64,000 nucleotides of DNA from Desulfobacteraceae bacterium (GCA_013791935.1 VMSV01000204.1:13415-77414); one strand, 5' to 3'. Numbered from the stretch's first letter, positions 5,472-39,590 are shown. Notes: a model not told the origin generated them from the sequence alone. Program-made: numbers and translations.

Positions 5472-7430
5472 ATGGAACTTTATTTCCTGTCGTTGACCCT
5501 GATTTTCTCAGGAGGTTTTTTAGCCCTGATTTTGAACCGGCATTTCACCGCCATGAAACTTGCTGCGGTGATCCCCATCAGTGCCGGGTGCCTTCTGGGT
5601 CTGGCGGATGCCGTTGTCAAGCTGGTCCATGGCGGGTCGGATAAAACCTCTTTTGCCTATCTCAATGCTTTTTCCCTTGATTTTCAGATGGACGCGTTGT
5701 CGGCCTTTTTTTTGATCACCATATTTTTCATCTGCCTGCTGGCATCGATTTACAGCTTCCATTATATAAACAAGCCTGAAAAGACCCTGAAATCTTCGGT
5801 GAGCTATCTTTTCTTTGCCATGCTCATTGTGGCCATGGCCCTGGTGGTGACGGCCAACAACATGATCGCTTTTCTTCTCTCCTGGGAAATCATGTCCATT
5901 TCCTCCTTTTTCCTGGTGATCTACAGCTATACGTCTTCGGAAAACCGATATGCCGGACGTCTTTATTTTATTTTCTCCCAGGTGGGGGCCATGTTCATTT
6001 TTGCCGCTTTCGGCCTGGTGTATCAGGTGACGGGTAATTTTGGATTCACTGATGCGGCAACCCTTTCCCAAGGGGTAAAACTGCTGGTGTTCATTTTTAC
6101 TTTTATCGGATTTGGTTCCAAGGCCGGGGTGTTTCCCCTGCATGTCTGGCTTCCCCACGCCCACCCTGCGGCCCCAAGCCACATCTCGGCGGTGATGTCC
6201 GGGGTCATGATCAAAACCGGCATTTACGGAATTTTAAGAATGTATGCTGTTTTGGACCTGCACACGCCCATTTTGGGGAACATTGTTCTGGCCGCGGGCA
6301 TGGTGTCAGGCATCCTGGGAGTGGTTTACGCACTGGGGCAACATGATCTGAAAAGGCTTCTGGCATACCACAGCGTTGAAAACATCGGCATCATCCTCAT
6401 TGGCCTGGGCATCGGCATGATGGGGGTTTCTTCGGGTAAACCCGTGATGGCGGTGATGGGGTTCGCCGGTGGGCTGCTTCATGTGATGAATCATGCCATT
6501 TTTAAATCCCTTCTGTTTATGGGTGCGGGAATGGTCCTTCAAAAAACCGGCACCGGGACCCTGGACGTTCTTGGTGGGCTACTTAAAAAAATGAAAATCA
6601 CCGGGGCCACGTTTCTGATCGGGTCCATGGCCATTTCGGGGCTTCCGCCCTTTAACGGATTCGTAAGTGAGTTTTTTATCTACCTGGGGGCGTTCAAAGG
6701 AGTCTTGCTCACCGGAAAGCCCCTTGTATTGAGCTTTTTGGGCATTGTGAGCCTGGCGGTCATCGGCGGCCTGGCCCTGGCCTGTTTCACCAAAGTGTTG
6801 GGGGTGGTGTTCCAGGGAGAGCCCAGAAGTGAAGCGGCCAAAGACGTTAATGAGGATGGCTGGTCCATGCTGGTCCCCATGGTGATCCTTGCCGCGTGTT
6901 GTGTGATCATCGGGGTTTACCCAAAATGGTTCATTCTGGCAGCGGTCAAAGCCATCTATTCCCTTAACCCGGGGTACGGTCACATCCCCCTGGATGGTTT
7001 TATTGAGATCACCGGCAATATCTCCCGGGCCGCGTCCCTTTTCTTTGGGGTGATTCTTTTGGTTTTTGCCATTCGTTTCCTGGCGTACAAAAACAAACCC
7101 ATCACCCGGAGAGGGACATGGGGATGCGGTTTTACCCAGCCCACGGCAAGAATGCAGTATACCGGATCATCCTATGCCGCGTCCATTCTAGAATTTTTCA
7201 GGCCGGTGGCTCCTCTGGAAGAACATCATACGGAAATTTCCGGCGTGTTTCCCAAACAGACCCATTATGCCGGCCATGTTCATGACATTGCCGAACGATA
7301 TATGAAAAGGGTGACCGTTTATCCGGTGATGACCCTGTTTGACAAGCTTCGCTTTATTCAGCACGGGGATATCCACCTGTACATCGGGTATATCCTGCTG
7401 GCAATCGTCGTGCTTTTGTTCTTTATATAG
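5472..7430 (+). CDS. complex I NuoL / hydrogenase-4 HyfB / Mrp antiporter-like membrane subunit
   Basis: 652-aa polytopic membrane protein with the proton-pumping antiporter motif WLPHAHPAAPSHISAVMSGVMIKTGIYG. First gene of the six-gene module. Confidence 0.8.
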   Translation: MELYFLSLTLIFSGGFLALILNRHFTAMKLAAVIPISAGCLLGLADAVVKLVHGGSDKTSFAYLNAFSLDFQMDALSAFFLITIFFICLLASIYSFHYINKPEKTLKSSVSYLFFAMLIVAMALVVTANNMIAFLLSWEIMSISSFFLVIYSYTSSENRYAGRLYFIFSQVGAMFIFAAFGLVYQVTGNFGFTDAATLSQGVKLLVFIFTFIGFGSKAGVFPLHVWLPHAHPAAPSHISAVMSGVMIKTGIYGILRMYAVLDLHTPILGNIVLAAGMVSGILGVVYALGQHDLKRLLAYHSVENIGIILIGLGIGMMGVSSGKPVMAVMGFAGGLLHVMNHAIFKSLLFMGAGMVLQKTGTGTLDVLGGLLKKMKITGATFLIGSMAISGLPPFNGFVSEFFIYLGAFKGVLLTGKPLVLSFLGIVSLAVIGGLALACFTKVLGVVFQGEPRSEAAKDVNEDGWSMLVPMVILAACCVIIGVYPKWFILAAVKAIYSLNPGYGHIPLDGFIEITGNISRAASLFFGVILLVFAIRFLAYKNKPITRRGTWGCGFTQPTARMQYTGSSYAASILEFFRPVAPLEEHHTEISGVFPKQTHYAGHVHDIAERYMKRVTVYPVMTLFDKLRFIQHGDIHLYIGYILLAIVVLLFFI

Positions 7431-7445
7431 GGATTGTTTAACACC

Positions 7446-7571
7446 GAAATGGCCAATTTGCCCAATTTCTGCGTTGGACAAAAATTTTAATCCTCAAAAT
7501 ACTATAAGTATTCCTGCGGTTAAAATTTTTGTCCGCCTTGAACTTGAACAAATTTTCTCATTTCTGGATGG
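7446..7571 (+). repeat. MITE-like ~130-bp structured repeat, copy 1, in the intergenic leader before the NuoH-like gene
   Basis: About 90% identical to the reverse complement of 39591-39723. Contains a 15-bp perfect stem GGACAAAAATTTTAA...TTAAAATTTTTGTCC with a nested AATACT/AGTATT hairpin. Ends 37 nt before the ATG at 7609. Confidence 0.6.
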
Positions 7572-7608
7572 GCAATAGGTAGTTTCCATTCAATAAAAAG
7601 GGAACCTG

Positions 7609-8526
7609 ATGATTTCTATTCTTCTTTACATTCTTGCGATTCTTGTTTCACCGTTTTTTGCTGCGGTGATTCTCAAGGTGAAGGCCTTTTTCGGAGGGAA
7701 AAAGGGTCCGCCCCTGCTCATCCATTACTACACCCTGATCAAGCTCTTTAAAAAAGGATCGGTCTACAGCACCAGCACGACCTATATCTTTAAACTAGGG
7801 CCCGTGGTTTCTCTGGGCACGGCGGCAACCGCGTTGATGTTTCTTCCCATCGCCGGTTTTTCACCGCTTATTTCATTCAAGGGCGATATCATTTTTGTTT
7901 TTTACCTTCTGGCCCTGGGCCGGTTTTTCACCATTGCCGCAGCCATGGACACAGCCTCCCCGTTTGAAGGCATGGGGGCGGCTCGGGAAGCCTATTTCCC
8001 CATCATCTGTGAGGCTACCTCCTTCATGATCGTGATCCTGTTCTCCCGGCTTTCCGGAGAATTGAACCTGGCCGCCTATTTTTCCGAGAACCAGCCCATG
8101 GTTCTGTGGCAGAATGCCGGGGCTGCTCTTGTTTTTGTGGTGGTGGCGTTTTTCATTGTACTTCTCACGGAAAACGCCAGGGTTCCCGTGGACGACCCAG
8201 CCACCCATCTGGAGTTGACCATGATCCATGAGGTCATGGTTCTGGACCATAGCGGCCCGGATTTCGGATTGATTGAACTCGGGTCTTTTATAAAATTGTT
8301 TTTTTATTCAACCATCGTGGCGAGACTGGTTTTCCCCTTTGATTTGGGGAGCGGAGTGGCCAACGGCGGGGCTTTTGCCCTTACCCTGTTGTTCCTTTAT
8401 ACGGTGGCAGGGGTGGTTGAGTCGATCATGGCGCGCTACAGAATGGACAAGGTGCCCAAATTTATCCTCACCTCCTTTGCCCTGGCCTTTGTGGCAACCC
8501 TGATCACCCTGGAGGTCATAAGATGA
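7609..8526 (+). CDS. complex I NuoH / formate hydrogenlyase subunit 4 (HycD/HyfC)-like membrane subunit
   Basis: 305-aa membrane protein with NuoH/HycD-like helices. RBS AAAGGGAACC. Confidence 0.75.
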   Translation: MISILLYILAILVSPFFAAVILKVKAFFGGKKGPPLLIHYYTLIKLFKKGSVYSTSTTYIFKLGPVVSLGTAATALMFLPIAGFSPLISFKGDIIFVFYLLALGRFFTIAAAMDTASPFEGMGAAREAYFPIICEATSFMIVILFSRLSGELNLAAYFSENQPMVLWQNAGAALVFVVVAFFIVLLTENARVPVDDPATHLELTMIHEVMVLDHSGPDFGLIELGSFIKLFFYSTIVARLVFPFDLGSGVANGGAFALTLLFLYTVAGVVESIMARYRMDKVPKFILTSFALAFVATLITLEVIR

Positions 8527-9164
8527 CGCAACTTGTTGACATCATATTGTCCCTATCCCTTTTGTCCATCATCTTTTCATTCGGTTCCAGCCGGTTGCAG
8601 GGATTGATCAAGGCCCTGGCCTTTCAGGGCATCGTGGTCTCCATCGTTCCCTTTTTCATGGGGCACGAACTTTCCGGGGGCGACATCATTTTTTCCCTGA
8701 CCACCCTTCTGATTCGGGGCATCGGCATTCCCCTGTATCTTTACTCGGCCATTGAAAAAATAGCCGTCCATCGGGAACTTGAACCCATCATCGGCTACCA
8801 CGGGTCCATTCTCATCGGGCTTCTCATGGTTGTGGCCGCCATGTTCGTGAGCCGAAAGATCAACGTGCCGTCAGCCAGCGACAGCTTACTTCTGCTACCC
8901 ACGGCCATGGTTTTGCTTTCCGGGGGCATGTTTTTGATGATGGCCCGGCGAAAAGCCATCACCATGGTTTTGGGGTACATGACCATGGAAAACGGCATCT
9001 ATCTGGTGGGAACCACATTTTCCGTGCGGGCACATCATATCGTGGAATTCGGCGTGCTTCTGGATGTTCTTGCCGGAGTCATGATCATGGCCGTGATTCT
9101 TCAAAATATGAAACAGGGGGCGGAAGATCCGGACATGGCCCTTAACAAAATTTCCAAGGAGTAG
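8523..9164 (+). CDS. hydrogenase-4 component E (HyfE)-like small membrane subunit
   Basis: 213-aa hydrophobic protein. 4-nt start/stop overlap with the previous gene; size and position match HyfE. Confidence 0.65.
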   Translation: MTQLVDIILSLSLLSIIFSFGSSRLQGLIKALAFQGIVVSIVPFFMGHELSGGDIIFSLTTLLIRGIGIPLYLYSAIEKIAVHRELEPIIGYHGSILIGLLMVVAAMFVSRKINVPSASDSLLLLPTAMVLLSGGMFLMMARRKAITMVLGYMTMENGIYLVGTTFSVRAHHIVEFGVLLDVLAGVMIMAVILQNMKQGAEDPDMALNKISKE

Positions 9165-9171
9165 GTCATTC

Positions 9172-10593
9172 ATGGTGGAAATCCTTTTTCTGGTTCCTTT
9201 TCTTACGGGCGTGCTCTCGTTTTTTCTGCCGAGCAAACCCGGCCGGAGCATGCTGGTGCTGACCGGCGCGATTCACTTCGTACTGACCCTTGTGCTCTGG
9301 ATCATTCGGCCCGGGGCCCTGATGCCCGCCTATTTCATGGTGACACCGGAAGGCCTTTTGTCCCTGTCGGTGATTTCCCTCCTCTTTCTGTTGATCTCCA
9401 TCTACACGACGGCGTATATCGAGAGCGCCCACATCCGCAATGAAAAGGTTTTCATCGGATCCATGCTGCTTTTTTTGTCCACCATGACCATGGTCACCCT
9501 TTCAGACCATATCATGGTCATGTGGATTGCCATAGAATCCACCACCCTGGCCAGTGCACCCTTGATCTACACGTCCGGGTCCCCGAAATCCCTGGAAACC
9601 ACCTGGAAATACGTTTTCATCTGCTCCGTGGGGATTGCTATGGCGCTTTTGGGCTCGGTCCTGATTTCCCTGGCCGTGGATGCGGGTGGTGAAAATGTCC
9701 CCATGTCTTTTTCAGCGCTTTCCGCGCAAGCCCCTCGCCTTGATAGCATGTGGCTCAAAGCCGGTTTTATTTTTATCCTCGTGGGATACGGGACCAAAAT
9801 GGGGCTTGCACCCATGCACACCTGGCTTCCCGATGCCCATAGCGAGGCCCCGAGCCCCGTGTCGGCCCTGCTCTCCGGCGTGCTGCTCAATTGCGCCTAT
9901 CTGGGTATTTTTAAAACCCACAAAATCATGGTCAGCGCCGGGTTGGCTGATTTCTCGGGAACCCTTCTCATGGCCTTCGGGATCGTCTCCATTCTGGCCG
10001 CCGCCACCTTTATTCTCAAACAGGGGGAGTACAAGCGCCTTTTGGCCTATTCCAGCATCGAAAATATGGGGATTATCGCTTTCGGAACCGGGCTGGGGGG
10101 CATCGGGGTTTACGGCGCCATACTCTGTCTGATTCATCACAGCCTGATCAAATCCTCTTTGTTTTTAACCTCGGGCAATATTCTACTGGGGTACGGCAAT
10201 CGTTTGATCGTGCAAACGGGAAACCTGGCCGGTCAAATGCCAAAAACTTTTGTGGCCTTTTTCGCCGGATTTGTGGGAATATCCGGTTTTCCGCCCTTCG
10301 GCATATTCATGGGAGAATTGCTGATCATCGTGGGGGCTTTCCGCACGGGGCATACGATTTGGGCCGGTATCTTCATTGCAAGCCTTTGCATCATCGTCGC
10401 CGGGTTTGTTAATCAGGTCATGCGGATATCCTTTGATGATGCCCCGAAAACCGTTAATTTTAAGGAAAAAGCACGGTTGATCTGGCCCCAGTTTACCTTG
10501 CTTGCGACCTCGGTGGTTTTAAGCTTCTGGATACCCGATGTGGTGTACCTGGAAATCGTCAATGCAGTGGTGTCCGTGGGTGGGGGATTTTAA
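9172..10593 (+). CDS. complex I NuoN/NuoM / HyfF-like antiporter-type membrane subunit
   Basis: 473 aa with the Mrp-type motif WLPDAHSEAPSPVSALLSGVLLNCAYLG. AAGGAG RBS. Confidence 0.8.
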   Translation: MVEILFLVPFLTGVLSFFLPSKPGRSMLVLTGAIHFVLTLVLWIIRPGALMPAYFMVTPEGLLSLSVISLLFLLISIYTTAYIESAHIRNEKVFIGSMLLFLSTMTMVTLSDHIMVMWIAIESTTLASAPLIYTSGSPKSLETTWKYVFICSVGIAMALLGSVLISLAVDAGGENVPMSFSALSAQAPRLDSMWLKAGFIFILVGYGTKMGLAPMHTWLPDAHSEAPSPVSALLSGVLLNCAYLGIFKTHKIMVSAGLADFSGTLLMAFGIVSILAAATFILKQGEYKRLLAYSSIENMGIIAFGTGLGGIGVYGAILCLIHHSLIKSSLFLTSGNILLGYGNRLIVQTGNLAGQMPKTFVAFFAGFVGISGFPPFGIFMGELLIIVGAFRTGHTIWAGIFIASLCIIVAGFVNQVMRISFDDAPKTVNFKEKARLIWPQFTLLATSVVLSFWIPDVVYLEIVNAVVSVGGGF

Positions 10594-12110
10594 TGAAAAC
10601 GAATTTTTTAACACTGGATAACGGCCGGGCCGTCCCAAGGGACAAGATTCCCCATTTGTCCTTTGAGAATTTTCGGGAAGAAGCATTGGCCATCGTGGGG
10701 GACGGCGGCAATGTGGTGCAATTTTTCGCTTACCAGGACACGGATCACACGCTTAAAATGCTGGCTGTTCTAAGATCGAAGGACCATACCCTGCTTGCAG
10801 CGGGTTGTGATGCTCCGCCTTCCTGGCCCGCCCTTTCCGCGATCTGCAGGCCTTTTCATTTGTTTGAACGGGAAATGGCCGAACAGTTCGGCCTTCGGCC
10901 CGAAGGGCACCCCTGGTTGAAAATGGTCCGATACCATGCCAACTGGATGGGGAAGGAAGACATTTTCGGAAACGATTATAGGGAAGATATTCCGGGAAAC
11001 TATGACTATTACTCCGTGACCGGAGATGAGATTCATGAGGTTGCGGTGGGACCGGTTCATGCGGGGGTCATCGAGCCCGGCCATTTCAGGTTCAACTGCA
11101 TCGGCGAAAAGGTGTTGCACCTGGAGATTCAATTGGGCTATCAGCATCGGGGGGTGGAGCTATTGCTTCTCAAGGCCGGGGCTTCCCGTCTGCCCATTAT
11201 TGCTGAAGGCATTGCAGGCGATACCGCCATCGGTCACAGCCTTTGCATGGCCCAGGCCGTGGAGGGACTTGCGGGTATTGAAGTGGATCAGGGGGCCAGA
11301 ATCAGTCGAACCATTGCCCTGGAACTGGAGCGCATTGCAAATCATGTGGGAGATTTGGGCGCCTTGAGCGGAGATGTGGCCTTTCTGCCCGTGGCCAACT
11401 ACTGCGGAAGAATGCGGGGAGATTTTCTCAATATGTCCCTGTGGATGTGCGGAAACCGTTTCGGCAAAGGCCTGGTTCGTCCGGGGGGGGTACGCTTTGC
11501 CTTGACCGATGAAGACAGAAGCGTGCTTCTGGGGCGCATCAACGAGTTGAAACCCCAGGTGGAACATGTCATCGATCTTCTATTCTCAACCTCCAGTGTT
11601 CGCGCCAGGTTTGAAGACTGCGGGGTGGTGCCCACCGAGATTGCCAAAAAACTGGGACTTGTGGGGCCTTCGGGCCGGGCCAGCAGTTTGCCGTATGATG
11701 CTCGACGCTGCTTTCCCACGGAATATTACTCTCAATTGTCGATTCCCGAAAGCGCCCTGGCCGGTTGCGATGTTTATGCCCGGGCCAGAGTCCGCGCCGA
11801 TGAAGTGCTTCAATCCATAGGAATCATTCAATCTTTGCTTTCCCATTCGGTGAATACTCACCCGGTGGAAACAATTGATTTTGCCCTGGCTCCGTCTTCT
11901 TTTACGGTGGCGATCAATGAAGCCTGGCGGGGGGAAGTCTCCCATGCCCTTCTCACCGACGGAAATGGCAAACTGCTTCGGTATAAAATCAAGGATCCGT
12001 CCTTTCACAACTGGAACGGTCTGGCCATGGCCTTAAGGAATACGGGAATTTCGGATTTCCCCTTGAACAACAAGAGCTTTAACCTGTCTTACTGCGGGTT
12101 TGATCTTTGA
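10593..12110 (+). CDS. fused NuoC-NuoD / HycE-like large subunit lacking all four Ni-Fe ligating cysteines (Ehr-type)
   Basis: GPVHAGVIEPGHFRF and YQHRGVE are conserved. The L1 motif RxCGxCxxxH reads EGIAGDTAIGH (Cys to Ala, Cys to Thr) in a gap-free alignment with the EchE sequence written from memory. The C-terminus ends ...NLSYCGFDL with no DPCxxCxxR motif. ATG overlaps the upstream TAA. Confidence 0.8.
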   Translation: MKTNFLTLDNGRAVPRDKIPHLSFENFREEALAIVGDGGNVVQFFAYQDTDHTLKMLAVLRSKDHTLLAAGCDAPPSWPALSAICRPFHLFEREMAEQFGLRPEGHPWLKMVRYHANWMGKEDIFGNDYREDIPGNYDYYSVTGDEIHEVAVGPVHAGVIEPGHFRFNCIGEKVLHLEIQLGYQHRGVELLLLKAGASRLPIIAEGIAGDTAIGHSLCMAQAVEGLAGIEVDQGARISRTIALELERIANHVGDLGALSGDVAFLPVANYCGRMRGDFLNMSLWMCGNRFGKGLVRPGGVRFALTDEDRSVLLGRINELKPQVEHVIDLLFSTSSVRARFEDCGVVPTEIAKKLGLVGPSGRASSLPYDARRCFPTEYYSQLSIPESALAGCDVYARARVRADEVLQSIGIIQSLLSHSVNTHPVETIDFALAPSSFTVAINEAWRGEVSHALLTDGNGKLLRYKIKDPSFHNWNGLAMALRNTGISDFPLNNKSFNLSYCGFDL

Positions 12111-12148
12111 TGGGCAACCATCATGAAAAATGAAAAAGTGAAATCACC

Positions 12149-12892
12149 ATGCTAAGAACCCTGAAAAACAGATTTGAACAAGGCTATCGGACGTCCGCCT
12201 ATCCCAAAACCCCCATTGAATTGCCCCAACGATACCGGGGTCTCCCGAAAGTCCATCAAAAAGTCTCTCAGGAAGTGGCGGACCAATGTGAAGCAGCCTG
12301 CCCCCAAAAGGCCATTGATGGAAAAAACAAACGCATCGACCTGGGCCGATGCGTGTTCTGCGGAACTTGCGAGCGGATTTCAAACGGGGGTTTCGCTTCC
12401 TTTTCCCGGTCTTTTGAGCTGGGAACGGCACAAAGGGACCATCTTTTCACCAACGGCACCCTTCCGTCTTTGGCTGAAAATGCCAAGGACCATTTTAAAA
12501 AACTCTTTGGCCGGTCCCTTCAGTTGCGGCAGGTGTCCGCCGCCGGATGCAATGCCTGTGAAGCGGATCTGAACGTATTGGCAACGCCTTTTTTTGACCT
12601 GGCCCGGTTCGGCATCAATTTTGTGGCTTCCCCCCGCCACGCCGACGGCATTGTGGTCACAGGACCCATTTCAAGAAACATGAAAAAAGCTCTGCTGGAA
12701 ACCTTTGATGCGGTGCCTTCCCCCAAGGTGGTCATTGCCGTGGGGGCCTGCTCCATTTCAGGCGGTCCGTTTCACGGCAGCCCCGAAGTCTCCGAAGGGT
12801 TGGGGGATCTTCTTCCCGTGGATCTCTTCATTCCCGGCTGCCCGCCCCATCCCCTGACCAATCTCCATGCCCTGCTGACGTTTTTCAAATAG
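12149..12892 (+). CDS. fusion of a NuoI/HycF-like 4Fe-4S ferredoxin domain with a NuoB/HycG-like small subunit
   Basis: N-terminus has CEAACP plus CVFCGTCERIS, i.e. 5 Cys, enough for one full cluster only. C-terminus has the NuoB/HycG motifs GCNACEADL, VIAVGACSISGGPF and IPGCPPHP, so N2-cluster ligands are retained. Confidence 0.8.
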   Translation: MLRTLKNRFEQGYRTSAYPKTPIELPQRYRGLPKVHQKVSQEVADQCEAACPQKAIDGKNKRIDLGRCVFCGTCERISNGGFASFSRSFELGTAQRDHLFTNGTLPSLAENAKDHFKKLFGRSLQLRQVSAAGCNACEADLNVLATPFFDLARFGINFVASPRHADGIVVTGPISRNMKKALLETFDAVPSPKVVIAVGACSISGGPFHGSPEVSEGLGDLLPVDLFIPGCPPHPLTNLHALLTFFK

Positions 12893-12897: not shown

Positions 12898-14322
12898 TCA
12901 AGGTTTGATGACCAGGGTGGGGTACAACCCCTGCAACCGGCCCTGGGGGTAGGGTTGAAGGGTGTTGAAGGAAATGTTCTGGTTGTTCTGGGCATGGCCC
13001 TTGTTGGCCCCGGAAGCATTGTAAAAGGCTCCGTTGGCTTCCAGAATATGGTGAATCCTGTCCCGGAACGCGTTAACGAACGCCGCGCCGCTTCCTTCAA
13101 AAAACATCCGGCCCTTGGAGAAATGGGCGTTGATGTTTTTAAAATCCACGATGGCCATGCTGTTGGCTTCCAGCTCTTTGGGGTTGGTGATCATCCCCCA
13201 GGCAATATAACCCGCCGGAACAACGATTTTTTCCCTGGCATCGATAATGGTGTGGGGCATGATGATGGACTCTTTTTCAATGGAAAGGCGGCAGTCCGGA
13301 CGACCCCGCAGGAAACTGTTGAAGCCCACGAATACGTTTTTGCCCAGGTCTGCTTCGATGATCTTGGCCCCATGGGCTGTAACATTGTTACCTTCGAGCT
13401 TGCTGTTGATGATATAACAGTTTTCCTGGGCGTTGGCCCCCTGTCCCAGCCAGGCGTTTTGCAGAAAAGCCCTTTGGGACACCAGAACGTTTTCGCCGAT
13501 ATGGGTTTCGGGTTTGGTTACGGCATACCGGTCCAAAGAAGCGCTTTTGGGAACCGGGATGGAAGACGGAACATTCACCTTGTCAAACACCATCTGGAAG
13601 GCCTCCTTGCGGTCTTCCACAAAATCCACGATCTGGCCCTGGGGTGGTTTCCCCCCTGAAAAATAAACAAAATCATTCAGCTGGGCCATGGGATACCGGT
13701 AGAGAAAGTTAAACGTGTCATCTTTCTTCACCCACACGGTTCCCGGCGCCACATTCAAATGGCTGATCTCCCCGGCCTGGACGTATGAAAAGGTTCCCAC
13801 CACGGAATCGGTGACCGTGGTTAAATCCACGGTGGAAAAGGGTCCAAGAAAACACCCGGACGTGGGGGAGCCGTGAATATTGGCGTAGTTCAAGGAAATG
13901 GTGTCGTTGATAAAAAAATTCTCCAGGGTCTCCGGGTCGTGGGAATAGTTGTGAACCAGGGTCTTGTTGAGAAAACTGTCTTCAATGACAATGCCCTCAT
14001 CATCGGTGAGGGGAATTTTTTGATCTTGAAAAGCGAACAGGTCGCCTTTTTTCTTCAATTCGTCACCCCGGATGTCGCTTTTGTACAAAACCGCGTTTTT
14101 GACCCGGCATTTCCCCAGAAAATAACTGCCGGACAGGCAGGAATGGGTGAACTGCATATCCAGGGGGTGGCTGGAGGTAATCCCATAGAAAGCGTAGAAT
14201 TTCATCAGTTTATCATAAGGAAGAAGCTCCTTCAGCATGGGCTGGACATCGATGTTCAGCTCGCGAAGGTTGATGCTGGTCCGCAGGATGATTCTTTCAA
14301 ATAGTTTTTCCAGTTCTTTCAT
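12898..14322 (-). CDS. hypothetical protein with hexapeptide-like (left-handed beta-helix) repeats
   Basis: 474-aa ORF converging on the NuoIB-like gene. The stretch IGENVLVSQRAFLQNAWLGQGANAQENCYIINSKLEGNNVTAHGAKIIEADLGKNVFVGFNSFL has LbH periodicity. No catalytic motif recognised. Confidence 0.5.
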   Translation of the reverse strand: MKELEKLFERIILRTSINLRELNIDVQPMLKELLPYDKLMKFYAFYGITSSHPLDMQFTHSCLSGSYFLGKCRVKNAVLYKSDIRGDELKKKGDLFAFQDQKIPLTDDEGIVIEDSFLNKTLVHNYSHDPETLENFFINDTISLNYANIHGSPTSGCFLGPFSTVDLTTVTDSVVGTFSYVQAGEISHLNVAPGTVWVKKDDTFNFLYRYPMAQLNDFVYFSGGKPPQGQIVDFVEDRKEAFQMVFDKVNVPSSIPVPKSASLDRYAVTKPETHIGENVLVSQRAFLQNAWLGQGANAQENCYIINSKLEGNNVTAHGAKIIEADLGKNVFVGFNSFLRGRPDCRLSIEKESIIMPHTIIDAREKIVVPAGYIAWGMITNPKELEANSMAIVDFKNINAHFSKGRMFFEGSGAAFVNAFRDRIHHILEANGAFYNASGANKGHAQNNQNISFNTLQPYPQGRLQGLYPTLVIKP

Positions 14323-14333: not shown

Positions 14334-14897
14334 TTATGTCTTTGCGATTTTTTCGTTTTCTCTCATGGCATGAAAAATGGCGGCAAATACATCCGTCATG
14401 CGAAGAATGCCGATGATATCCTTGTCCTGCATAACCATCAGGGATAGATAATTCCCTTTGGAAAGCTGGAAGATGGCTTTGTCCAGGGACGCGTCGGCCG
14501 CAATCAATTCCCCGGCTGACGGTGTTTTCATGAAATCCTCCACCTTCATATTGGCGGGTCCCGAGCAGATTTCATTCAAGGAACGCCCCTTGGGCCGGTA
14601 TTGTTCGTGGACGGATGCAATAAAGGCCGGGCTGAAACCGAACTGGGCTGCTTCCTCCAAGCCTTCCACATGGGTATTTCCAGAAATGATCGCCCGTAAA
14701 ACGTCATTCTGGCTGAGCTTTCCCACCACCCGTTTGTTTTTGTTCATGACGAGCACCGCACGGTGGCGATACTTGGTGTAATCAAATTCCTCCTGGGCTT
14801 TTTCCAGAGCATCAACGGCCTGATAGAGGGTTGACCCCTCGGGAACCGTGGCGTATTCTGAAATAGGAACCATTAAATCTTTTACGATGTATTCCAT
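14334..14897 (-). CDS. CBS-pair domain protein
   Basis: Two CBS motifs (VKDLMVP...VPEGSTLYQAVDAL; VEDFMKTPSAGELIAADASLDKAIFQL). Confidence 0.7.
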   Translation of the reverse strand: MEYIVKDLMVPISEYATVPEGSTLYQAVDALEKAQEEFDYTKYRHRAVLVMNKNKRVVGKLSQNDVLRAIISGNTHVEGLEEAAQFGFSPAFIASVHEQYRPKGRSLNEICSGPANMKVEDFMKTPSAGELIAADASLDKAIFQLSKGNYLSLMVMQDKDIIGILRMTDVFAAIFHAMRENEKIAKT

Positions 14898-15079: not shown

Positions 15080-15754
15080 ATGCTGGTTCGGGATTGGATG
15101 AGCAAAACGGTTATTACGGCTGATGCGGAAGATTCCATGCAAGACGCGGTCAGACTGTTGAAAGACCACGGAATAAAAATACTACCGGTTTTGGACCACG
15201 GAAAACTCGCAGGAATTGTGACCGACCGGGACCTGAAGCGGGCCTCGGCATCGGACGCCACAACCCTGGAAATCCACGAACTGGTCTATCTTCTTTCCAA
15301 AATAAAAATCAAGGAGGTCATGACCCCCCACCCGGTGACCGTTTCCCTGGACGCAACCATAGAAGAAGCGGCCCAGGCCATGCTTGCCCGTAAAATATCC
15401 GGGGTTCCGGTGGTGGACCCCAATGGTGAAGTCCATGGGATAATCACCCAGAATGACCTGTTCCGGGTCATCATCTCCTTTACGGGCATTGATAAAAAAG
15501 GAATCCAGATCGGCCTTCAAACCTTGGATAGACCCGGAGCCCTCTCCTATTGCCTGGACATGATCCGGCAGCAAAACGGAAGAATCATGAGCGTATTAAG
15601 CTCCAGGGAACAGGCCCCGGAAGGAACTCTGAGAATCTATATCCGGGCTTTTGATATTGAAGGGGATAAACTTGAAGCCCTGAAAAAAGAGTTTCAGTCC
15701 AAGGCGGATATCCTGTACCTCGTAGATCATCAATCGGGCCGCAGAACCTTGTAA
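15080..15754 (+). CDS. CBS-pair + ACT domain protein (AcuB-like)
   Basis: MLVRDWMSKTVITA...GIKILPVLDHGKLAGIVTDRDL CBS pair followed by a C-terminal ACT-like domain. Confidence 0.7.
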   Translation: MLVRDWMSKTVITADAEDSMQDAVRLLKDHGIKILPVLDHGKLAGIVTDRDLKRASASDATTLEIHELVYLLSKIKIKEVMTPHPVTVSLDATIEEAAQAMLARKISGVPVVDPNGEVHGIITQNDLFRVIISFTGIDKKGIQIGLQTLDRPGALSYCLDMIRQQNGRIMSVLSSREQAPEGTLRIYIRAFDIEGDKLEALKKEFQSKADILYLVDHQSGRRTL

Positions 15755-15767: not shown

Positions 15768-17339
15768 ATGAAAGTCAGCCGCGTTTTCGAAATGCAGCAT
15801 CTGGATAAAATAGCCATGGAGCACTACGGTATTCCGGAATCCCTGTTGATGGAAAATGCGGGGCTGGCCGTTTCCGAAGTCATCCGCAGGACCCCGGGTG
15901 TTTCGGGCAAGCGGTTCTTGATCCTCTGCGGAACCGGCAACAACGGCGGAGACGGCTTTGTGGTGGCCCGAAAGATCCATTCCAACGGCGGGCGGCCCAA
16001 AATCATCCTCACGGGAGATCGAAATCGTTATCAGGGGGCGGCCCGAATAAATCTGAACATTCTGGAAAAATTGCCCGTAGAAATTGCTGATTTTTTTTCC
16101 TTGGATATCCTTCGAATGGATCTGGCCCAAAGCGATGCCATTGTGGATGCCATTTTTGGAACCGGACTGACCCGGAAGGTCGAGGGCAAATACCATGATA
16201 TCATTGACCTCGTCAATCAATCCGGGAAAACCGTTTTCAGTGTGGACATTCCCTCCGGTGTTTCCGGTGATACCGGCCAAGTCATGGGGATCGCGGTGGA
16301 TGCCCACCATACCGTCACCTTCGGGCTTCCCAAGACCGGCAATCTTTTTTATCCGGGGTTCAAACACTGCGGGAAACTCCATGTATCCCATATCTCCTTT
16401 CCACCCGATCTTTACGAACATTTCCAGATTTCCATCAACACACCCCTGGCGCTTCCCGACCGGAATCCCCAAGGCCACAAGGGTGAGTTTGGCCAGATGC
16501 TGGCCATCGCAGGGGCGTTCGGGTATTTTGGCGCCCCGTATTTTGCCGCCATGGCTTTTCTTAAAGCCGGTGGGGGATATTCCCGGTTGGCCTGCCCGAA
16601 AAGCATGGTTCCTTTCCTGGCCCGGAAGGGGCCCGAGATTGTCTTTATTCCCCGGGAAGAAACCCCCAAAGGAAGCATGGCTTTGAGCAACAAAAACGAT
16701 CTTCTGGCCCTCTGTGATAAAATGGACGTAGTGGTGTTGGGCCCCGGCTTGTCCCTTGAGGATGAAACCCTTGAACTTACAAGGCAACTTGCATTGGAAG
16801 TGGATAAACCCTTGATCCTGGACGGTGACGGGATCACGGCTCTTTGTGAGAATCCGGACCTTCTGACGGGAAGAAAAGGCGGCACCATCCTCACCCCCCA
16901 TCTTGGAGAAATGGCGCGGTTAACCGGCAAGACCCTTGCCTTTATTCAAGAGAACAAAATCGACCTGCTTCAGGATACCGCAAAAACCTTGAATTCCGTG
17001 ATTGTTTTAAAAGGGCCCCATTCCCTGATTGGATGCCCGGATGGGAAGGTGTATATCAACCTCAGCGGGAACAGCGGCATGGCAACGGCAGGTTCGGGAG
17101 ATGTGCTGGCCGGAACCATCGGAGCCATGGTGACCTTGGGCCTTTCCGTTGAAGATGCAGCCAGGAAAGGCGTTTTTCTCCACGGCCTTTCAGGGGATCT
17201 TGCGGCCCTGGAAAAAGGGGAAGACGGCATGACAGCCCAAGATATACTGGATTTTTTGCCCCTGGCCTTAAAATCAGACAGGGAAGGGCTACCCGACCCA
17301 TTGAAGGAAAAATACCGTGGGGCGGCGCTGGTTTTGTGA
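15768..17339 (+). CDS. nnr: bifunctional NAD(P)H-hydrate repair enzyme Nnr (epimerase + ADP-dependent dehydratase)
   Basis: YjeF-N motif LILCGTGNNGGDGFVVARKI and a C-terminal carbohydrate-kinase-like domain (GPGLSLEDETLEL...GSGDVLAGTIGAM). Confidence 0.85.
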   Translation: MKVSRVFEMQHLDKIAMEHYGIPESLLMENAGLAVSEVIRRTPGVSGKRFLILCGTGNNGGDGFVVARKIHSNGGRPKIILTGDRNRYQGAARINLNILEKLPVEIADFFSLDILRMDLAQSDAIVDAIFGTGLTRKVEGKYHDIIDLVNQSGKTVFSVDIPSGVSGDTGQVMGIAVDAHHTVTFGLPKTGNLFYPGFKHCGKLHVSHISFPPDLYEHFQISINTPLALPDRNPQGHKGEFGQMLAIAGAFGYFGAPYFAAMAFLKAGGGYSRLACPKSMVPFLARKGPEIVFIPREETPKGSMALSNKNDLLALCDKMDVVVLGPGLSLEDETLELTRQLALEVDKPLILDGDGITALCENPDLLTGRKGGTILTPHLGEMARLTGKTLAFIQENKIDLLQDTAKTLNSVIVLKGPHSLIGCPDGKVYINLSGNSGMATAGSGDVLAGTIGAMVTLGLSVEDAARKGVFLHGLSGDLAALEKGEDGMTAQDILDFLPLALKSDREGLPDPLKEKYRGAALVL

Positions 17340-17384: not shown

Positions 17385-20300
17385 ATGGTTGAACGATTGG
17401 CGAAAGGTCTATTTCACAGCATGCAAAGCGAAACCATCAGCGGGAATCCTGTTCAAAATATACTTGGTCTGTGCCTGGGGGCCACCACCCTTTCCATGGT
17501 TCATCTTCGGGCCCCCCTGGATTCGGAAAAACCCAACGAAGTTTTGCCTGAAATCGTAAACACCCGCTTATACACCCACGAAGGAAATCCTAAAAAAACC
17601 CTTCAACAGGCCCTGGAAGAGATGGATCTTTACCGGTTCGACAAAATTGCGGCCACGGGAAGAAAATTTCGCCATTACGTGAATTTTACTTCCATTTCTG
17701 AATCCGAAGCCGTGGAATATGCATACCGGTTTGTCAAAGCGCCCGGCATTTCCTCCCAGGCCATTGTGTCTGCCGGGGGGGAAACCTTCATGGTGTATGC
17801 TTTGAATCAAAAGGGCCAGATTTCCAATGTCATCACAGGAAATAAATGCGCCTCGGGAACCGGGGAGTTCTTCCTTCAGCAGCTAAGGCGCATGAATGTC
17901 ACCCTTGCGGAGGCCGCTCTTTGGGCTGCTGATGAGACCCCCTATGGGGTTTCCGGGCGATGCAGCGTGTTCTGCAAATCCGACTGCACCCATGCCACCA
18001 ACAAGGGAATCCCCAAGGCCAATGTCACGGCAGGCCTATGCCGCATGATGGCCGGCAAGGTTTTGGAGCTGCTCAAGAACATCGATAGAACAAACATCAT
18101 GATCACCGGGGGCGTTACCCAAAACAAAATGATGGTTGAATACTTAAAACAGGAAATTCCCGGACTGATCATTCCCCGGGAGGCCGCCTGTTTTGAGGCC
18201 CTGGGGGCTGCCCTCTGGGCGACCCGGAACCCCACCGATGCCTTTACCCGGAACATGTCGCTGTTTAATGCCCGTGCAGGCACCACGGACACCCTGGCCC
18301 CCCTTTCGGAGTTTGAACACAGGGTGGAGTTTAAAACCATGGCCAAAGATCAAGTGAAAGCCGGGGACATCTGCATCCTGGGTCTGGACGTCGGTTCCAC
18401 CACCACCAAGGCCGTCCTGATGCGAAAACAGGACCATGCCCTGCTGGCCTCGGTGTATCTCAGAACCAACGGTGATCCTGTGGGGGCCTCCCGGAATTGT
18501 TATGGCGCCATTCTGGAGCAGATCCAACATGCCGGGGTCCTTCCGGAAGACATTCAAATCACGGGGCTCGGGGTCTGCGGTTCGGGTCGGCAGATTGCAG
18601 GCCTTCATGCCCTGACCGACGGGGTGATCAATGAAATCATCGCCCACGCCGAAGCCGCGGTTTTCTTTGATGACAAGGTGGATACGATTCTGGAAATCGG
18701 AGGCCAGGATGCCAAATACACCTATATCGTCAACGGAGTCCCGGCGGATTACGCCATGAACGAGGCCTGTTCCGCCGGAACCGGTTCGTTCCTGGAGGAA
18801 TCCGCCCTGGAAACCCTCGGGATTAAAATGGAAGAGATCGCCCCCATTGCGCTGGCCGCAAAATCCCCCCCCAATTTCAATGACCAGTGCGCGGCCTTCA
18901 TCGCCTCGGATATCAAGAACGCCATTCATGAGGGCGCCTCCCATGAGGATATCGTGGCAGGTCTGGTCTATTCCATCTGCATGAACTACACGAACCGGGT
19001 GAAGGGCAACCGGAAGGTGGGAGAAAAGATCTTCATGCAGGGAGGGGTTTGCTACAACCGCGCTGTGCCCTTGGCCATGGCGTCTCTTCTGGGAAAATCC
19101 ATGGTGGTTCCGCCGGAACCTGGCCTCATGGGGGCTTTCGGAGTGGCCCTGGAAGTTAAAAAAAGACTCCGCCACGGCCTTCTGGAAGAAAAAGCCTTTG
19201 ATCTCAAAAATCTTTATCAACGAGAAGTTCTTTACAAGGAGTCCTTTGTCTGTAAAGGCGGGAAACCCCGCTGCGACCGGAAATGCGACATCGCAAGGAT
19301 TGAAGTGGAGGGCAAAACCTATCCGTTCGGCGGTGCCTGCAACCGGTATTACAACCTGAGAAGCCGGATAGAAGTAAATGTTGAAGAGCTTGACCTGGTC
19401 CAAAAAAGGCAGGACCTGATCTTCCAGGAATACGCCGCTTTCGCGGCCGCAAAAGAGGCTCCTTACAGAGGGGCAGTGGGTATCAACAGGAGCTTCATGA
19501 CCAACACCTACTATCCCTTGTACTCCACCTTTTTTTCCGAACTCGGGATGGAGCCCTTTCTTTCCCGGGAATCCCTGCAGAAAGGCATTGACCGGCGGGG
19601 TTCGGCCTTCTGCTACCCTTCGGAGCTGGCCCACGGCTATCTTTATTCCCTGCTGACGGGTGAAAAGCCCCTGGATTACCTGTTTCTTCCCCATTTCAAG
19701 GCCGTGCCCACCCAGATCGAGAATTTCACTTCCCAGGTCTGCCCCATTGTTCAGGGGGAAAGCTTTTACCTCGCGGCCAGTTTCAAAAAGGAAATCAAAG
19801 CCCTGGAGGCCAAGGGGTTACGGATACTTTCGCCTTTACTGGATCTGTCCCAAGGGGATTTTGAGGCGAAAAAACCCCTGGTTGCCATGGCGATTTCCAT
19901 GGGAATTCCCAAAGCGGAGGCCGCAAGGGCCTTTGAAAAAGCCCTGAAAGTTCAAAAGGACTGCTTTGCCGAGATGAAAGACCTGGGGAAAAAAGCCTTG
20001 ATCACCCTGGAATCCCGGCCGGATAAAACCGGTGTGGTGCTCTTTGCCAGGGCCTACAACGGATTTGTGGAAGAAGCCCACATGGGGATTCCCAATAAAT
20101 TCGCCTCCAGGGGCATTTTAACCCTTCCCTATGATTTTCTGGATTTTGAAGAAGAGGAAGCAAAACATCACATGTACTGGGGCATCGGCCAGCGTCTCAT
20201 GAAGGCCACCCGGATGGTCAAAAAGCATCCCCAACTGTTCGGGGCCTTCATCACAAACTTCTCCTGCGGACCGGATTCCTTTTTAATTACCTATTTCAGG

Positions 20301-28509: not shown

Positions 28510-28566
28510 GGCATCCTCGTTGTTTGTTCATTTCCAAATTCTTCAATCCGGCTGCATGCAACGGAT

Positions 28567-31098: not shown

Positions 31099-31162
31099 AA
31101 CCTCTTTCTGATGGACTTTTTCGAAACGATGAATCCTCCAAAACCGCTTTTCCCCAAGGGAG

Positions 31163-36792: not shown

Positions 36793-36885
36793 GGGGTCCC
36801 CTGTCGTTTATACGGGGGTCTTTCCAAAACCTTCCCGCGGGTTTGCCCAAGCGAAATCGTTCTGTGGGTCTTTTTCACAAACATG

Positions 36886-39564: not shown

Positions 39565-39590
39565 AAGCACCTCTATTTTTTTGATAGTGT

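What the first reader, a model, noticed from the sequence alone, without database searches (positions are those of the whole stretch)
5472..12892. Six-gene complex I / group-4 hydrogenase-like membrane module whose 'large subunit' has no Ni-Fe site (Ehr-type)
The order NuoL-like, NuoH-like, HyfE-like, NuoN-like, NuoCD/HycE-like, NuoI-NuoB mirrors hyf/hyc operons. In the large subunit the L1 motif RxCGxCxxxH reads EGIAGDTAIGH. This is a gap-free 47-residue alignment to the EchE sequence written from memory; both Cys are replaced and the His is kept. The C-terminus ends ...SYCGFDL with no DPCxxCxxR motif. So it cannot bind a Ni-Fe cofactor, yet the NuoB-like part keeps all four N2-cluster cysteines. 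No hyp/hyc maturation genes, formate dehydrogenase or CODH are nearby. This is a member of the poorly characterised 'energy-converting hydrogenase-related' complexes, an evolutionary intermediate between membrane hydrogenases and complex I. Its redox partners and function are unknown.
Basis: partly seen in the sequence, partly recalled or inferred. Interest (0 to 1): 0.8.

Follow-up and report, generated by a model that had tools for sequence, protein, structure and literature searches.

The report
Nickel-free hydrogenase-like membrane complex (Ehr)
This is an intact six-gene membrane complex of the already named but functionally unsolved 'Ehr' family: a relative of membrane-bound hydrogenases that has lost its nickel-iron site, is very common in anaerobic bacteria, and here also lacks one iron-sulfur cluster.

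Summary
Six co-directional genes (5472-12892) encode HyfB/NuoL-, HyfC/NuoH-, HyfE-, HyfF/NuoN-, HycE/NuoCD- and a fused HyfH(NuoI)-HyfI(NuoB)-like protein. The large subunit has A, T, S and G where HycE has its four Ni-Fe cysteines. It ends where mature HycE ends.

[quoted passage not shown] So it belongs to the known Ehr family. That family is huge: more than 8000 database hits and at least 590 species, across many phyla. Its function is still unknown in the literature, and no Ehr structure is in the PDB.

New details:
- The hydrogenase/complex I substrate-proton residues stay conserved around the metal-free pocket.
- The antiporter-like subunits keep their charged residues.
- In this Desulfobacterales/Desulfobulbales clade the cluster ligated by ferredoxin motif 1 (Cys 1-3) plus the last Cys of motif 2, read here as the distal one, has lost three of its four cysteines. 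Two clusters remain.
- In other phyla an HTH+PTS-EIIA regulator sits upstream of the operon. It is absent here.

Best guess: a low-potential-donor-linked, ion-translocating oxidoreductase whose acceptor is unknown, possibly menaquinone. This is a new member of a known kind, of moderate interest.

The parts
5472..7430 (+). ehrA: HyfB/NuoL-like antiporter-like membrane subunit (652 aa)
   Evidence: Pfam Proton_antipo_M 6e-52 and Proton_antipo_N. NCBIfam hydrogenase 4 subunit B 1e-169 over the full length. It keeps the TM5 Glu, TM7 Lys, TM8 Lys and TM12 Glu that align with E. coli NuoM E144/K234/K265/E407.
7609..8526 (+). ehrB: HyfC/HycD/NuoH-like membrane anchor (305 aa)
   Evidence: Pfam NADHdh 1.5e-32 over the full length. 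The alignment with HyfC, HycD and NuoH keeps the acidic stretch TENARVPVDDPATHLEL against IEMGKLPFDLAEAEQEL.
8523..9164 (+). ehrC: HyfE-like small membrane subunit (213 aa)
   Evidence: NCBIfam hydrogenase 4 membrane subunit (HyfE) 2.8e-22 over residues 2-196. Weak Pfam Oxidored_q2 (NuoK-like) hit.
9172..10593 (+). ehrD: HyfF/NuoN-M-like antiporter-like subunit (473 aa)
   Evidence: Pfam Proton_antipo_M 8e-49. NCBIfam hydrogenase 4 subunit F 2e-95. TM5 Glu, TM7 Lys and TM12 Glu are kept. TM8 is Asn, as in E. coli HyfF.
10593..12110 (+). ehrL: NuoC+NuoD / HycE-like large subunit without Ni-Fe ligands (505 aa)
   Evidence: Pfam Complex1_30kDa + Complex1_49kDa. Best PDB sequence match is HycE 7z0s_E, 1.4e-46. 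The AF2 model has pLDDT 81 and pTM 0.85, and its best fold match is 7z0s_E with TM 0.78. It is 46% identical over the full length to G. metallireducens EhrL.
11205..11237 (+). Remnant of the L1 motif: EGIAGDTAIGH (A208 and T211 replace the two Cys; D210 is new and nearly invariant)
   Evidence: Among 108 Cys-less representatives these positions read A/S (90), G (101), D (98), T/S (90) and H (76).
12075..12107 (+). Remnant of the L2 motif and C-terminus: SFNLSYCGFDL-COOH (S499 and G502 replace the two Cys)
   Evidence: By ungapped extension of the HMMER alignment, L505 falls on HycE R537, which I recall as the position where HycE is cut during maturation. The last 18 residues hold 10 of the 39 invariant columns of alignment A1.
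12149..12892 (+). ehrS: fusion of a HyfH/HycF/NuoI-like ferredoxin domain (about residues 1-105) and a HyfI/HycG/NuoB-like domain (about 120-247)
   Evidence: NCBIfam: formate hydrogenlyase iron-sulfur subunit / HyfH over residues 1-105, and NuoB over 131-245. A fused protein of 235-275 aa was found in 45 of the gene sets compared (43 related loci, the near-identical L001 and the window itself).
12266..12382 (+). Ferredoxin motifs. Motif 1 is degenerate (S40, A44, then C47 and C51-P). Motif 2 is C68-x2-C71-x2-C74 but S78 replaces the fourth Cys. One complete cluster remains (C51, C68, C71, C74) and one is lost.
   Evidence: All 120 closest homologues (74% identity or more) show the same pattern, with C47 and S78 invariant. 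EhrS from 26 of the 29 loci outside the Desulfobacterota clade has all eight Cys.
12548..12841 (+). NuoB-type cluster ligands C134, C137, C201, C231 (CxxC type, as in hydrogenase small subunits)
   Evidence: Conserved in 93-100% of 44 EhrS sequences and in all 121 close relatives.

Best explanation
**Identity (near-certain).** The region is an intact operon, ehrABCDLS, for an Ehr (Ech/energy-converting-hydrogenase-related) complex in a Desulfobacterales-type bacterium.

**Anatomy (shown).**
- A membrane arm with a NuoH-like anchor, a HyfE-like subunit and two antiporter-like subunits, whose charged ion-path residues are intact.
- A peripheral arm made of a NuoC+D/HycE-like subunit and a fused ferredoxin+NuoB subunit.
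- The four Ni-Fe cysteines are replaced by Ala, Thr, Ser and Gly, so it cannot be a [NiFe]-hydrogenase.
- It also lacks the quinone-site Tyr of complex I.

**Mechanism (inferred, about one chance in three for the specifics).**
- A low-potential donor, most simply ferredoxin as for six-subunit Ech, reduces the ferredoxin-domain cluster.
- Electrons pass to the NuoB-type [4Fe-4S] cluster and then to an acceptor bound in the remodelled, metal-free pocket where Ni-Fe used to sit.
- That step is proton-coupled, through the conserved beta1-beta2-loop Glu/His and the 'canopy' Arg/His/Glu network.
- It drives, or when run backwards is driven by, ion translocation in EhrB/C/D/A.
- Menaquinone is the most economical candidate acceptor, but nothing here shows it.

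**Clade difference.** In this clade the chain is shortened to two clusters, because the ferredoxin-domain cluster I take to be the distal one has been lost. The donor must therefore dock differently than in Geobacter-type Ehr.
For: **Identity.**
- Domain content and order.
- 46% full-length identity to the named G. metallireducens EhrL, with identical motifs.
- The same six-gene order with the fused small subunit in loci from many phyla.

**Not a hydrogenase.**

**The pocket is still under selection.**
- L1 and L2 remain among the most conserved segments.
- The HycE proton-path residues named in PMC9474812 are kept in 91-103 of 108 Cys-less representatives: H188>H156, E193>E161, H284>H251, R395>R362, E437>E404, R478>R446.
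- A new Asp (D210) is present in 98 of 108.

**Electron path.** The NuoB-type and one ferredoxin-type cluster have full Cys sets in nearly all members.

**Ion path.** Glu/Lys residues of the antiporter-like subunits and the NuoH acidic stretch are kept.

**No partner in cis.** No dedicated electron-input gene is conserved next to the operon in 80 loci. This is as expected for a generic soluble donor.

**Expression.** Ehr subunits are made in G. sulfurreducens and change with the electron donor (PMC7894505, PMC8691401).
Against: - No donor or acceptor is shown by any result here or in the papers read.
- Nqo4 Tyr87 aligns with the invariant Gly209, so a complex I-style quinone site is absent.
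- The canopy Asp that PMC9474812 calls strictly conserved in the superfamily is Asn here, and in 64 of 108 relatives.
- Riflemargulisbacteria with an Ehr are reported to lack quinone biosynthesis (PMC6349859). That argues against quinone as a universal acceptor.
- Loss of the presumed distal cluster in this clade removes the usual ferredoxin entry point. Two Gemmatimonadota loci also have a degenerate second motif, which hints that electron input through this domain may not be essential.
- Which ferredoxin-domain cluster is distal rests on my memory of the T. thermophilus Nqo9 ligand assignment and on the logic that only the distal cluster can be lost without breaking the chain. It was not tested, because the AF2 model of EhrS was unusable.
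Confidence: 0.45

Rival explanations
1. The complex is a redox-sensing or redox-gated cation/proton antiporter, not a turnover oxidoreductase. The hydrogenase-derived arm and its remaining clusters only report the cell's redox state to an Mrp-like transport module.
For: - No substrate site can be recognised: neither Ni-Fe ligands nor the quinone Tyr.
- Ferredoxin-domain clusters are lost in several lineages: the whole Desulfobacterota clade, L047, L075, and partly L076/L084.
- In about 38 loci of other phyla the operon is preceded by an HTH + PTS-EIIA(Ntr-type) regulator. Three to four loci also carry a SulP/STAS transporter. From memory, this regulator type is linked to ion homeostasis in proteobacteria.
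Against: - The NuoB-type cluster and the substrate-proton network around the old active site are strongly conserved. That is more than a sensor would seem to need.
- The regulator association is absent in the window's own clade.
- No experiment bears on this.
Confidence: 0.15
2. It is the membrane module of a formate-oxidising complex (FDH-Ehr), analogous to formate hydrogenlyase but with another acceptor. This has been proposed for Margulisbacteria and Saganbacteria.
For: - All Ehr subunits are more abundant in G. sulfurreducens grown on formate (PMC7894505).
- fdhA with nuoE/F-like genes lies near Ehr in some candidate phyla (PMC6349859).
- The closest solved relative is the FHL hydrogenase subunit HycE.
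Against: - No formate dehydrogenase, HycB/HyfA-type connector ferredoxin or nuoE/F gene is in the 64-kb window.
- None is conserved next to the operon in 80 loci.
- The HycF C-terminal extension that contacts HycB/FdhF in FHL (PMC9474812) is replaced here by the fused NuoB domain.
Confidence: 0.1
3. It reduces a sulfur compound (polysulfide or an organic disulfide) at the iron-sulfur cluster next to the empty pocket, like the MBS/Mbx complex of Pyrococcus.
For: MBS is the one Ni-Fe-less relative with an assigned function, as I recall it; PMC6349859 cites its earlier reading as a ferredoxin:NADP+ oxidoreductase. The host clade lives in sulfidic sediments. The four ligand positions are now small residues, which should enlarge the pocket.
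Against: - As I recall the MBS structure paper, catalysis there uses a site-differentiated cluster with only three Cys. Here all four NuoB-type Cys are kept.
- The Mrp-type multi-subunit module of MBS is absent.
- MbsL (6u8y_L) is a much weaker match (4e-19) than HycE.
- The family also occurs in aerobes such as comammox Nitrospira (PMC10284858).
Confidence: 0.07
4. It is a true [NiFe]-hydrogenase whose cysteines are hidden by a frameshift or sequencing error, or it is a decaying pseudo-operon.
For: None found.
Against: - Six uninterrupted ORFs.
- A 98%-identical protein in an independent assembly, and more than 100 homologues of 70% identity or more with the same residues.
- The Cys-less motifs are conserved across phyla.
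- The C-terminus is invariant to the last residue.
Confidence: 0.01

Closest known systems
Ehr complex of Geobacter (G. sulfurreducens GSU0739-0745, EhrA-D, EhrL, EhrS; G. metallireducens EhrL, UniProt Q39SF8)
   Same: Same six-gene order. The small subunit is fused in the same way. The large subunit is 46% identical end to end, with AGDT..GH in place of CGxCxxxH and the same terminal SFNLSYCGFDL. Function is unknown in both.
   Different: Geobacter-type EhrS keeps both ferredoxin-type clusters (L042), whereas the window and its whole Desulfobacterales/Desulfobulbales clade keep only one. Geobacter and most other phyla have an HTH+PTS-EIIA gene next to ehrA, which is absent here.
E. coli hydrogenase 4 / hydrogenase 3 (hyfABCDEFGHIJ; hycBCDEFGHI; FHL structure 7z0s)
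   Same: Gene order hyfB-C-E-F-G-H-I. HycE is the best sequence and fold match for the large subunit. The beta1-beta2-loop Glu, the canopy Arg and the His/Glu/Arg proton path are conserved. The antiporter-like and NuoH-like subunits are homologous.
   Different: No Ni-Fe cysteines. No C-terminal extension to be cleaved. No HyfA/HycB, HyfD, HyfJ/HycH or HycI protease, and no hyp genes nearby. H and I are fused into one protein. The canopy Asp529 is Asn.
Ech hydrogenase (six subunits, ferredoxin-dependent)
   Same: A minimal six-gene, stand-alone operon with no dedicated input module. This is the basis for naming ferredoxin as the likely donor (inference).
   Different: Ech has one antiporter-like subunit and a true Ni-Fe site. 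Ehr has two antiporter-like subunits plus HyfE, and no metal site. No Ech sequence was available here for direct comparison.
Respiratory complex I / NDH-1 (Q module NuoB, C, D, I, H)
   Same: Homologous subunits. The cluster chain N6a-N6b-N2 leads to a pocket at the NuoD/NuoB/NuoH interface. NDH-1 takes electrons from ferredoxin at N6a (PMC7021789).
   Different: Nqo4 Tyr87 aligns with Gly209, and the beta1-beta2 loop is hydrogenase-like (Glu rather than the complex I His). The NuoB-type cluster has CxxC rather than tandem CC. No NuoA/J/K set and no NuoEFG. Sequence similarity is much weaker (7e-29 versus 1.4e-46).
MBS/Mbx sulfane reductase of Thermococcales (6u8y)
   Same: A group-4-hydrogenase relative that has given up the Ni-Fe site yet remains an ion-pumping oxidoreductase.
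   Different: A distant match (4e-19). MBS has a large Mrp-type module and, from memory, a three-Cys site-differentiated cluster. Here all four Cys are present.

Membership tests
Ehr (Ech/energy-converting-hydrogenase-related) complex | Large subunit homologous to group 4 [NiFe]-hydrogenase large subunits but lacking the L1 and L2 CxxC ligands | tested here: met
   HycE C241/C244/C531/C534 correspond to A208/T211/S499/G502.
Ehr (Ech/energy-converting-hydrogenase-related) complex | Orthology to the Geobacter proteins for which the name was coined | tested here: met
   [quoted passage not shown] Geobacterales loci L042, L043 and L055 were retrieved by the same family patterns.
Ehr (Ech/energy-converting-hydrogenase-related) complex | Operon of NuoL-like, NuoH-like, HyfE-like and second antiporter-like subunits, plus large and small subunits | tested here: met
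   The same order was seen in at least 18 cleanly called loci from several phyla. Subunit names EhrA, EhrC, EhrL and EhrS are as in PMC7894505.
Group 4 membrane-bound [NiFe]-hydrogenase (Hyc/Hyf/Ech/Mbh) | Four cysteines in RxCGxCxxxH and DPCxxCxx(H/R) that bind Ni-Fe | tested here: not met
   None of the four is Cys. C501 is out of register and is variable in the family: C 42, S 26, A 22 of 108.
Group 4 membrane-bound [NiFe]-hydrogenase (Hyc/Hyf/Ech/Mbh) | C-terminal extension removed by a maturation protease, with hyp/hycI genes in the genome | tested here: not met
   The protein stops at the residue aligned with HycE R537. No hyp or protease genes are in the 64-kb window. The rest of the genome could not be searched.
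Complex I / NDH-1 quinone reductase module | Quinone head-group ligands: Tyr (Nqo4 Y87 / NuoCD Y273) and the beta1-beta2-loop His | tested here: not met
   Y87/Y273 aligns with the near-invariant G209. The loop is hydrogenase-type, VIEPGHF, with Glu161.
Complex I / NDH-1 quinone reductase module | Three-cluster chain N6a-N6b-N2 | tested here: not met
   The N2-type and one NuoI-type cluster are complete. The other NuoI-type cluster has lost three of its four Cys.
MBS/Mbx-type sulfane reductase | Site-differentiated proximal [4Fe-4S] with only three Cys, plus an Mrp-type multi-subunit module | tested here: not met
   Four Cys are present (C134, C137, C201, C231). There are only four membrane subunits. 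The definition of the feature is from memory of the MBS structure paper.
Formate hydrogenlyase-type complex | Formate dehydrogenase and a HycB/HyfA connector ferredoxin, encoded with or bound to the complex | tested here: not met
   Absent from the window and not conserved beside the operon in 80 loci. Physical association is not testable here.

The most novel reading that the evidence does not exclude
The metal-free pocket is a real active site of a kind not yet described. Ser/Thr/Asp replace the four cysteines, while the hydrogenase proton relay and the adjacent [4Fe-4S] cluster are kept. It would then bind either a non-cysteine-ligated metal or an unidentified small substrate. That would make Ehr a widespread, unrecognised class of ion-pumping respiratory enzyme. 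The Desulfobacterota form would run on only two clusters, fed by a donor other than a conventional ferredoxin docking site.
Probability: 0.12. Interest if true: 0.85.

Novelty: new member of a known kind. Interest (0 to 1): 0.4.

Why it matters
Ehr complexes are among the most widespread members of the complex I superfamily that still have no assigned reaction. This family alone gave more than 8000 database hits and at least 590 species. They include sulfate reducers, cable bacteria, Geobacter, Planctomycetota, Verrucomicrobiota and Acidobacteriota, and the literature adds comammox Nitrospira and ammonia-oxidising archaea.

Knowing the donor and acceptor would change energy budgets in models of many anaerobes. 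This particular locus adds no new kind of system, but it gives three usable leads:
- A natural two-cluster variant to compare with the three-cluster Geobacter form.
- Evidence that the old active-site proton path is still under selection.
- A conserved HTH-EIIA regulator in other phyla that could reveal the inducing signal.

Tried and rejected
- **Exact look-up of the window's large subunit.** It is not on record, so context came from the 98%-identical P0001.
- **AF2 model of EhrS.** I wanted to see which ferredoxin cluster faces the NuoB cluster.
- **Neighbour clustering.** A crude longest-ORF caller produced several large clusters that were antisense artefacts inside ehr genes of high-GC genomes (clusters 1, 2 and 4). 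Only the HTH-EIIA, hexapeptide-repeat, His-kinase/sigma-54 regulator and SulP clusters were real.
- **Apparent loss of NuoB-type Cys in L053, L058 and L071.** I did not trust this, because those ORFs carry insertions or mis-called starts.
- **Sigma-54 promoter upstream of ehrA.** None on the + strand. The sigma-70 and terminator scans were no better than shuffles.
- **Rfam, tRNA and tandem-repeat scans.** Nothing relevant.
- **Foundational papers.** The Marreiros 2013 BBA survey was requested by DOI and a PMC id I believed to be a 2011 comparative-genomics survey of sulfate reducers was also tried; neither is held, and I did not look up the Coppi paper. What I say about them is from memory or from papers that cite them.
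- **Recent literature.** Searches for a post-2021 functional or structural study of Ehr found none. The PDB copy to April 2026 has no closer structure than FHL HycE at 25% identity.


Full report
**What is in the sequence**

Six ORFs on the + strand fill 5472-12892 with short or overlapping junctions, apart from a 178-bp gap between the first two. Profile searches identify them as follows:

| ORF | Length | Identification |
|---|---|---|
| 5472-7430 | 652 aa | HyfB/NuoL-like antiporter-like subunit |
| 7609-8526 | 305 aa | NuoH/HyfC-like |
| 8523-9164 | 213 aa | HyfE-like |
| 9172-10593 | 473 aa | HyfF/NuoN-M-like |
| 10593-12110 | 505 aa | NuoC+NuoD/HycE-like |
| 12149-12892 | 247 aa | HycF/HyfH/NuoI-like ferredoxin domain (1-105) fused to a NuoB domain (131-245) |

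The order is that of E. coli hyfB-C-E-F-G-H-I, without hyfA, hyfD and hyfJ.

**The large subunit has no Ni-Fe site**

- HMMER against all PDB chains gives HycE of formate hydrogenlyase as best hit (7z0s_E, 1.4e-46), then MbhL (3e-39), then Nqo4 of complex I (7e-29).
- CGICGFAH of HycE aligns with AGDTAIGH. The protein ends SFNLSYCGFDL, against HycE SLDPCYSCTDR.
- In a 116-sequence alignment the four ligands C241, C244, C531 and C534 fall on A208, T211, S499 and G502.
- By ungapped extension, the last residue L505 falls on HycE R537. From memory, that is where the maturation protease cuts HycE, so the protein ends where a mature hydrogenase ends.
- An error is excluded. The ORF is intact, P0001 from an independent MAG is 98% identical, and 108 of the 113 cluster representatives aligned (the window protein among them) lack the L1 CxxC.

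**It is an Ehr complex**

- The window protein aligns with it from residue 1 to 505 at 46% identity. It has the same AGDT..GH and an identical last 11 residues.
- Papers describe G. sulfurreducens Ehr (GSU0739-0745) with NuoL-like EhrA, HyfE-like EhrC, EhrL and EhrS (PMC7894505).
- They describe Ehr in general as group-4-hydrogenase relatives without the CxxC motifs and of unknown function (PMC6349859, PMC10284858, PMC10432482, PMC3569383).
- The family is very large: 8000 of 8000 scored candidates were significant. There were 728 representatives below 1e-30 among 50%-identity clusters. At least 590 GTDB species genomes matched two family-specific peptide patterns. These span Desulfobacterales, Desulfobulbales including cable bacteria, Geobacterales, Planctomycetota, Verrucomicrobiota, Acidobacteriota, Gemmatimonadota, Spirochaetota, Bacteroidota and others.
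- The closest relatives are Desulfobacteraceae-type MAGs.

**What is conserved around the empty site**

The L1 and L2 segments are not decaying. They are among the best conserved parts of the protein: 10 of the 39 invariant columns lie in the last 18 residues.

Using the residues that the FHL structure paper assigns to substrate-proton transfer (PMC9474812), the Cys-less representatives keep the following:

| HycE residue | Window residue | Kept in (of 108) |
|---|---|---|
| H188 | H156 | 99 |
| E193 (beta1-beta2 loop) | E161 | 100 |
| H284 | H251 | 103 |
| R395 | R362 | 91, plus 11 Lys |
| E437 | E404 | 97 |
| R478 (canopy Arg) | R446 | 97 |

- The canopy Asp529 is Asn in 64 and Asp in 20.
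- The ligand positions have become A/S, T/S, S and G.
- The residue between the first two has become a near-invariant Asp (D210, 98 of 108).
- The complex I quinone Tyr (Nqo4 Y87, NuoCD Y273) aligns with the near-invariant Gly209.

So the pocket is neither a hydrogenase site nor a complex I quinone site. It keeps the proton plumbing of both.

An AF2 model (pLDDT 81, pTM 0.85) is confident except in the beta1-beta2 loop region and the C-terminal 16 residues. These are the parts that depend on partner subunits. Its best fold match is again HycE, and no closer structure exists in the PDB copy.

**The small subunit: one cluster is missing in this clade**

- The NuoB-type ligands C134, C137, C201 and C231 are present, and conserved in 93-100% of 44 EhrS sequences.
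- The ferredoxin domain normally has two eight-Cys motifs. EhrS from 26 of the 29 loci outside the Desulfobacterota clade has all eight.
- In the window, and in all 13 Desulfobacterales/Desulfobulbales loci whose EhrS could be aligned, positions 40, 44 and 78 are not Cys. In the 120 closest database homologues the pattern is fixed, with C47 and S78 invariant.
- The cluster ligated by the first three Cys of motif 1 and the last Cys of motif 2 therefore cannot form. The other cluster (C51, C68, C71, C74) is intact.
- From memory of the T. thermophilus Nqo9 assignment, the lost one corresponds to N6a. N6a is the distal cluster that takes electrons from ferredoxin in NDH-1 (order Fd-N6a-N6b-N2: PMC7021789).
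- Independent logic agrees: only the distal cluster can be lost without cutting the chain to the NuoB cluster.
- The same loss occurred separately in L047 and L075. Two Gemmatimonadota loci have a degenerate second motif.

**Membrane arm**

- EhrA keeps the TM5 Glu, TM7 Lys, TM8 Lys and TM12 Glu that align with NuoM E144, K234, K265 and E407.
- EhrD keeps Glu, Lys and Glu, with Asn at TM8, exactly as in HyfF.
- EhrB keeps the acidic stretch shared by HycD, HyfC and NuoH.

Nothing suggests that the ion path is defunct.

**Context**

- Within the window the neighbours are an enoyl-CoA hydratase, an ADP-forming acyl-CoA synthetase, a GATase_7 protein, a hexapeptide-repeat protein, two CBS proteins and YjeF. 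There is also a 1474-aa BcrAD/BadFG-DUF2229 protein, fumarase and aconitase.
- There are no hyp, fdh, CODH or nuoEFG genes anywhere in the 64 kb.
- Across 80 related loci no redox partner is conserved beside the operon.
- What is conserved, in about 38 of about 62 loci with upstream DNA, is a roughly 235-aa HTH_17 + PTS_EIIA_2 protein directly upstream of ehrA. Three to four loci also have a SulP/STAS transporter before it.
- The window's clade lacks this regulator. Desulfobulbales loci have a His kinase and a sigma-54 response regulator instead.

**How it probably works**

- Shown: an intact, selected, six-subunit complex with two complete [4Fe-4S] sites, a conserved proton relay into a metal-free pocket, and an intact antiporter-type membrane arm.
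- Inferred: a low-potential donor, most simply ferredoxin by analogy with stand-alone six-gene Ech operons, reduces the ferredoxin-domain cluster. Electrons reach the NuoB-type cluster and then a proton-coupled acceptor in the pocket. That step is coupled to ion translocation, in either direction.
- Menaquinone is the most economical acceptor. However, the quinone Tyr is absent, and an Ehr-bearing lineage without quinone synthesis has been reported (PMC6349859).
- I put identity as Ehr at about 0.97 and this mechanism at about one in three.
- The rivals are a redox-gated antiporter, an FDH-coupled complex and an MBS-like sulfur reductase. They are listed with their tests.

**Evolutionary claim**

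Sequence and fold distances place the protein with FHL-type hydrogenases, far from NuoD. In a rough NJ tree the Cys-bearing sequences (HycE, HyfG and five 4f-like representatives) nest among the Cys-less ones. That fits a hydrogenase-side lineage that lost its metal, better than a half-way stage to complex I. The tree is too crude to settle it.

**Verdict**

The system is a new member of a known, widespread, functionally unsolved family. The shortened two-cluster chain and the conserved proton path are useful but modest additions.

Noticed in passing
window 12266-12382 (EhrS residues 40-78); loci L006-L020: Clade-wide loss of three of the four Cys of one ferredoxin-type [4Fe-4S] site in EhrS of Desulfobacterales/Desulfobulbales. 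C47 and S78 are invariant in 121 close sequences. Independent losses occur in L047 (Geobacterales) and L075 (Bacteroidota).
   Followed up: yes
L021-L082, directly upstream of ehrA (for example L029:4106-4894, L075:4281-4988, L042:4016-4690 on the minus strand): A protein of about 235 aa with HTH_17 + PTS_EIIA_2 domains lies next to the ehr operon in about 38 loci from many phyla. It is absent from the window and its clade, except downstream in L015:14270-14944.
   Followed up: partly
L040:2585-4384, L051:2348-4255, L069:18-1754: A SulP family transporter with a STAS domain sits just upstream of the HTH-EIIA gene and the ehr operon in some Omnitrophota/Verrucomicrobiota/Planctomycetota loci.
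   Followed up: partly
window 58693-58708 (+) and 58780-58968 (+): A perfect sigma-54 -24/-12 element (TGGCACGGGGGTTGCT) lies about 70 nt upstream of a 62-aa Cys-rich ORF. It is just downstream of a sigma-54 activator response-regulator gene (56938-58302).
   Followed up: no
window 26521-39624 (-): Five consecutive hybrid histidine-kinase genes (662, 872, 726, 1150 and 912 aa) with PAS/GAF/Cache or solute-binding sensor domains. Each has HisKA, HATPase and a receiver domain.
   Followed up: no
window 12898-14322 (-), 14334-14897 (-), 15080-15754 (+): A 474-aa hexapeptide-repeat protein runs convergent with ehrS. It is conserved beside ehr in 5 other Desulfobacterales loci (plus the near-identical L001), 7 gene sets in all counting the window. 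It is followed by two CBS-pair proteins.
   Followed up: partly
window 17385-21809 (+): A 1474-aa protein with two BcrAD_BadFG ATPase domains and DUF2229 (activator-like for 2-hydroxyacyl-CoA dehydratase or benzoyl-CoA reductase). It lies next to a YjeF NAD(P)HX repair gene (15768-17339).
   Followed up: no
window 7431-7608: A 178-bp non-coding gap between ehrA and ehrB inside an otherwise tightly packed operon. No credible small ORF, Rfam match or terminator was found in it.
   Followed up: partly
P0197, P0225, P0231, P0237, P0241 (representatives, 34-36% identical): These are the nearest relatives that do keep CxxC at L1; four of them also keep both L2 Cys, while P0237 has Ala at the last ligand position. 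They end ...SF(E/N)LCYSC(T/C), with no C-terminal extension. In a rough NJ tree they group with HycE/HyfG inside the Cys-less sequences.
   Followed up: partly
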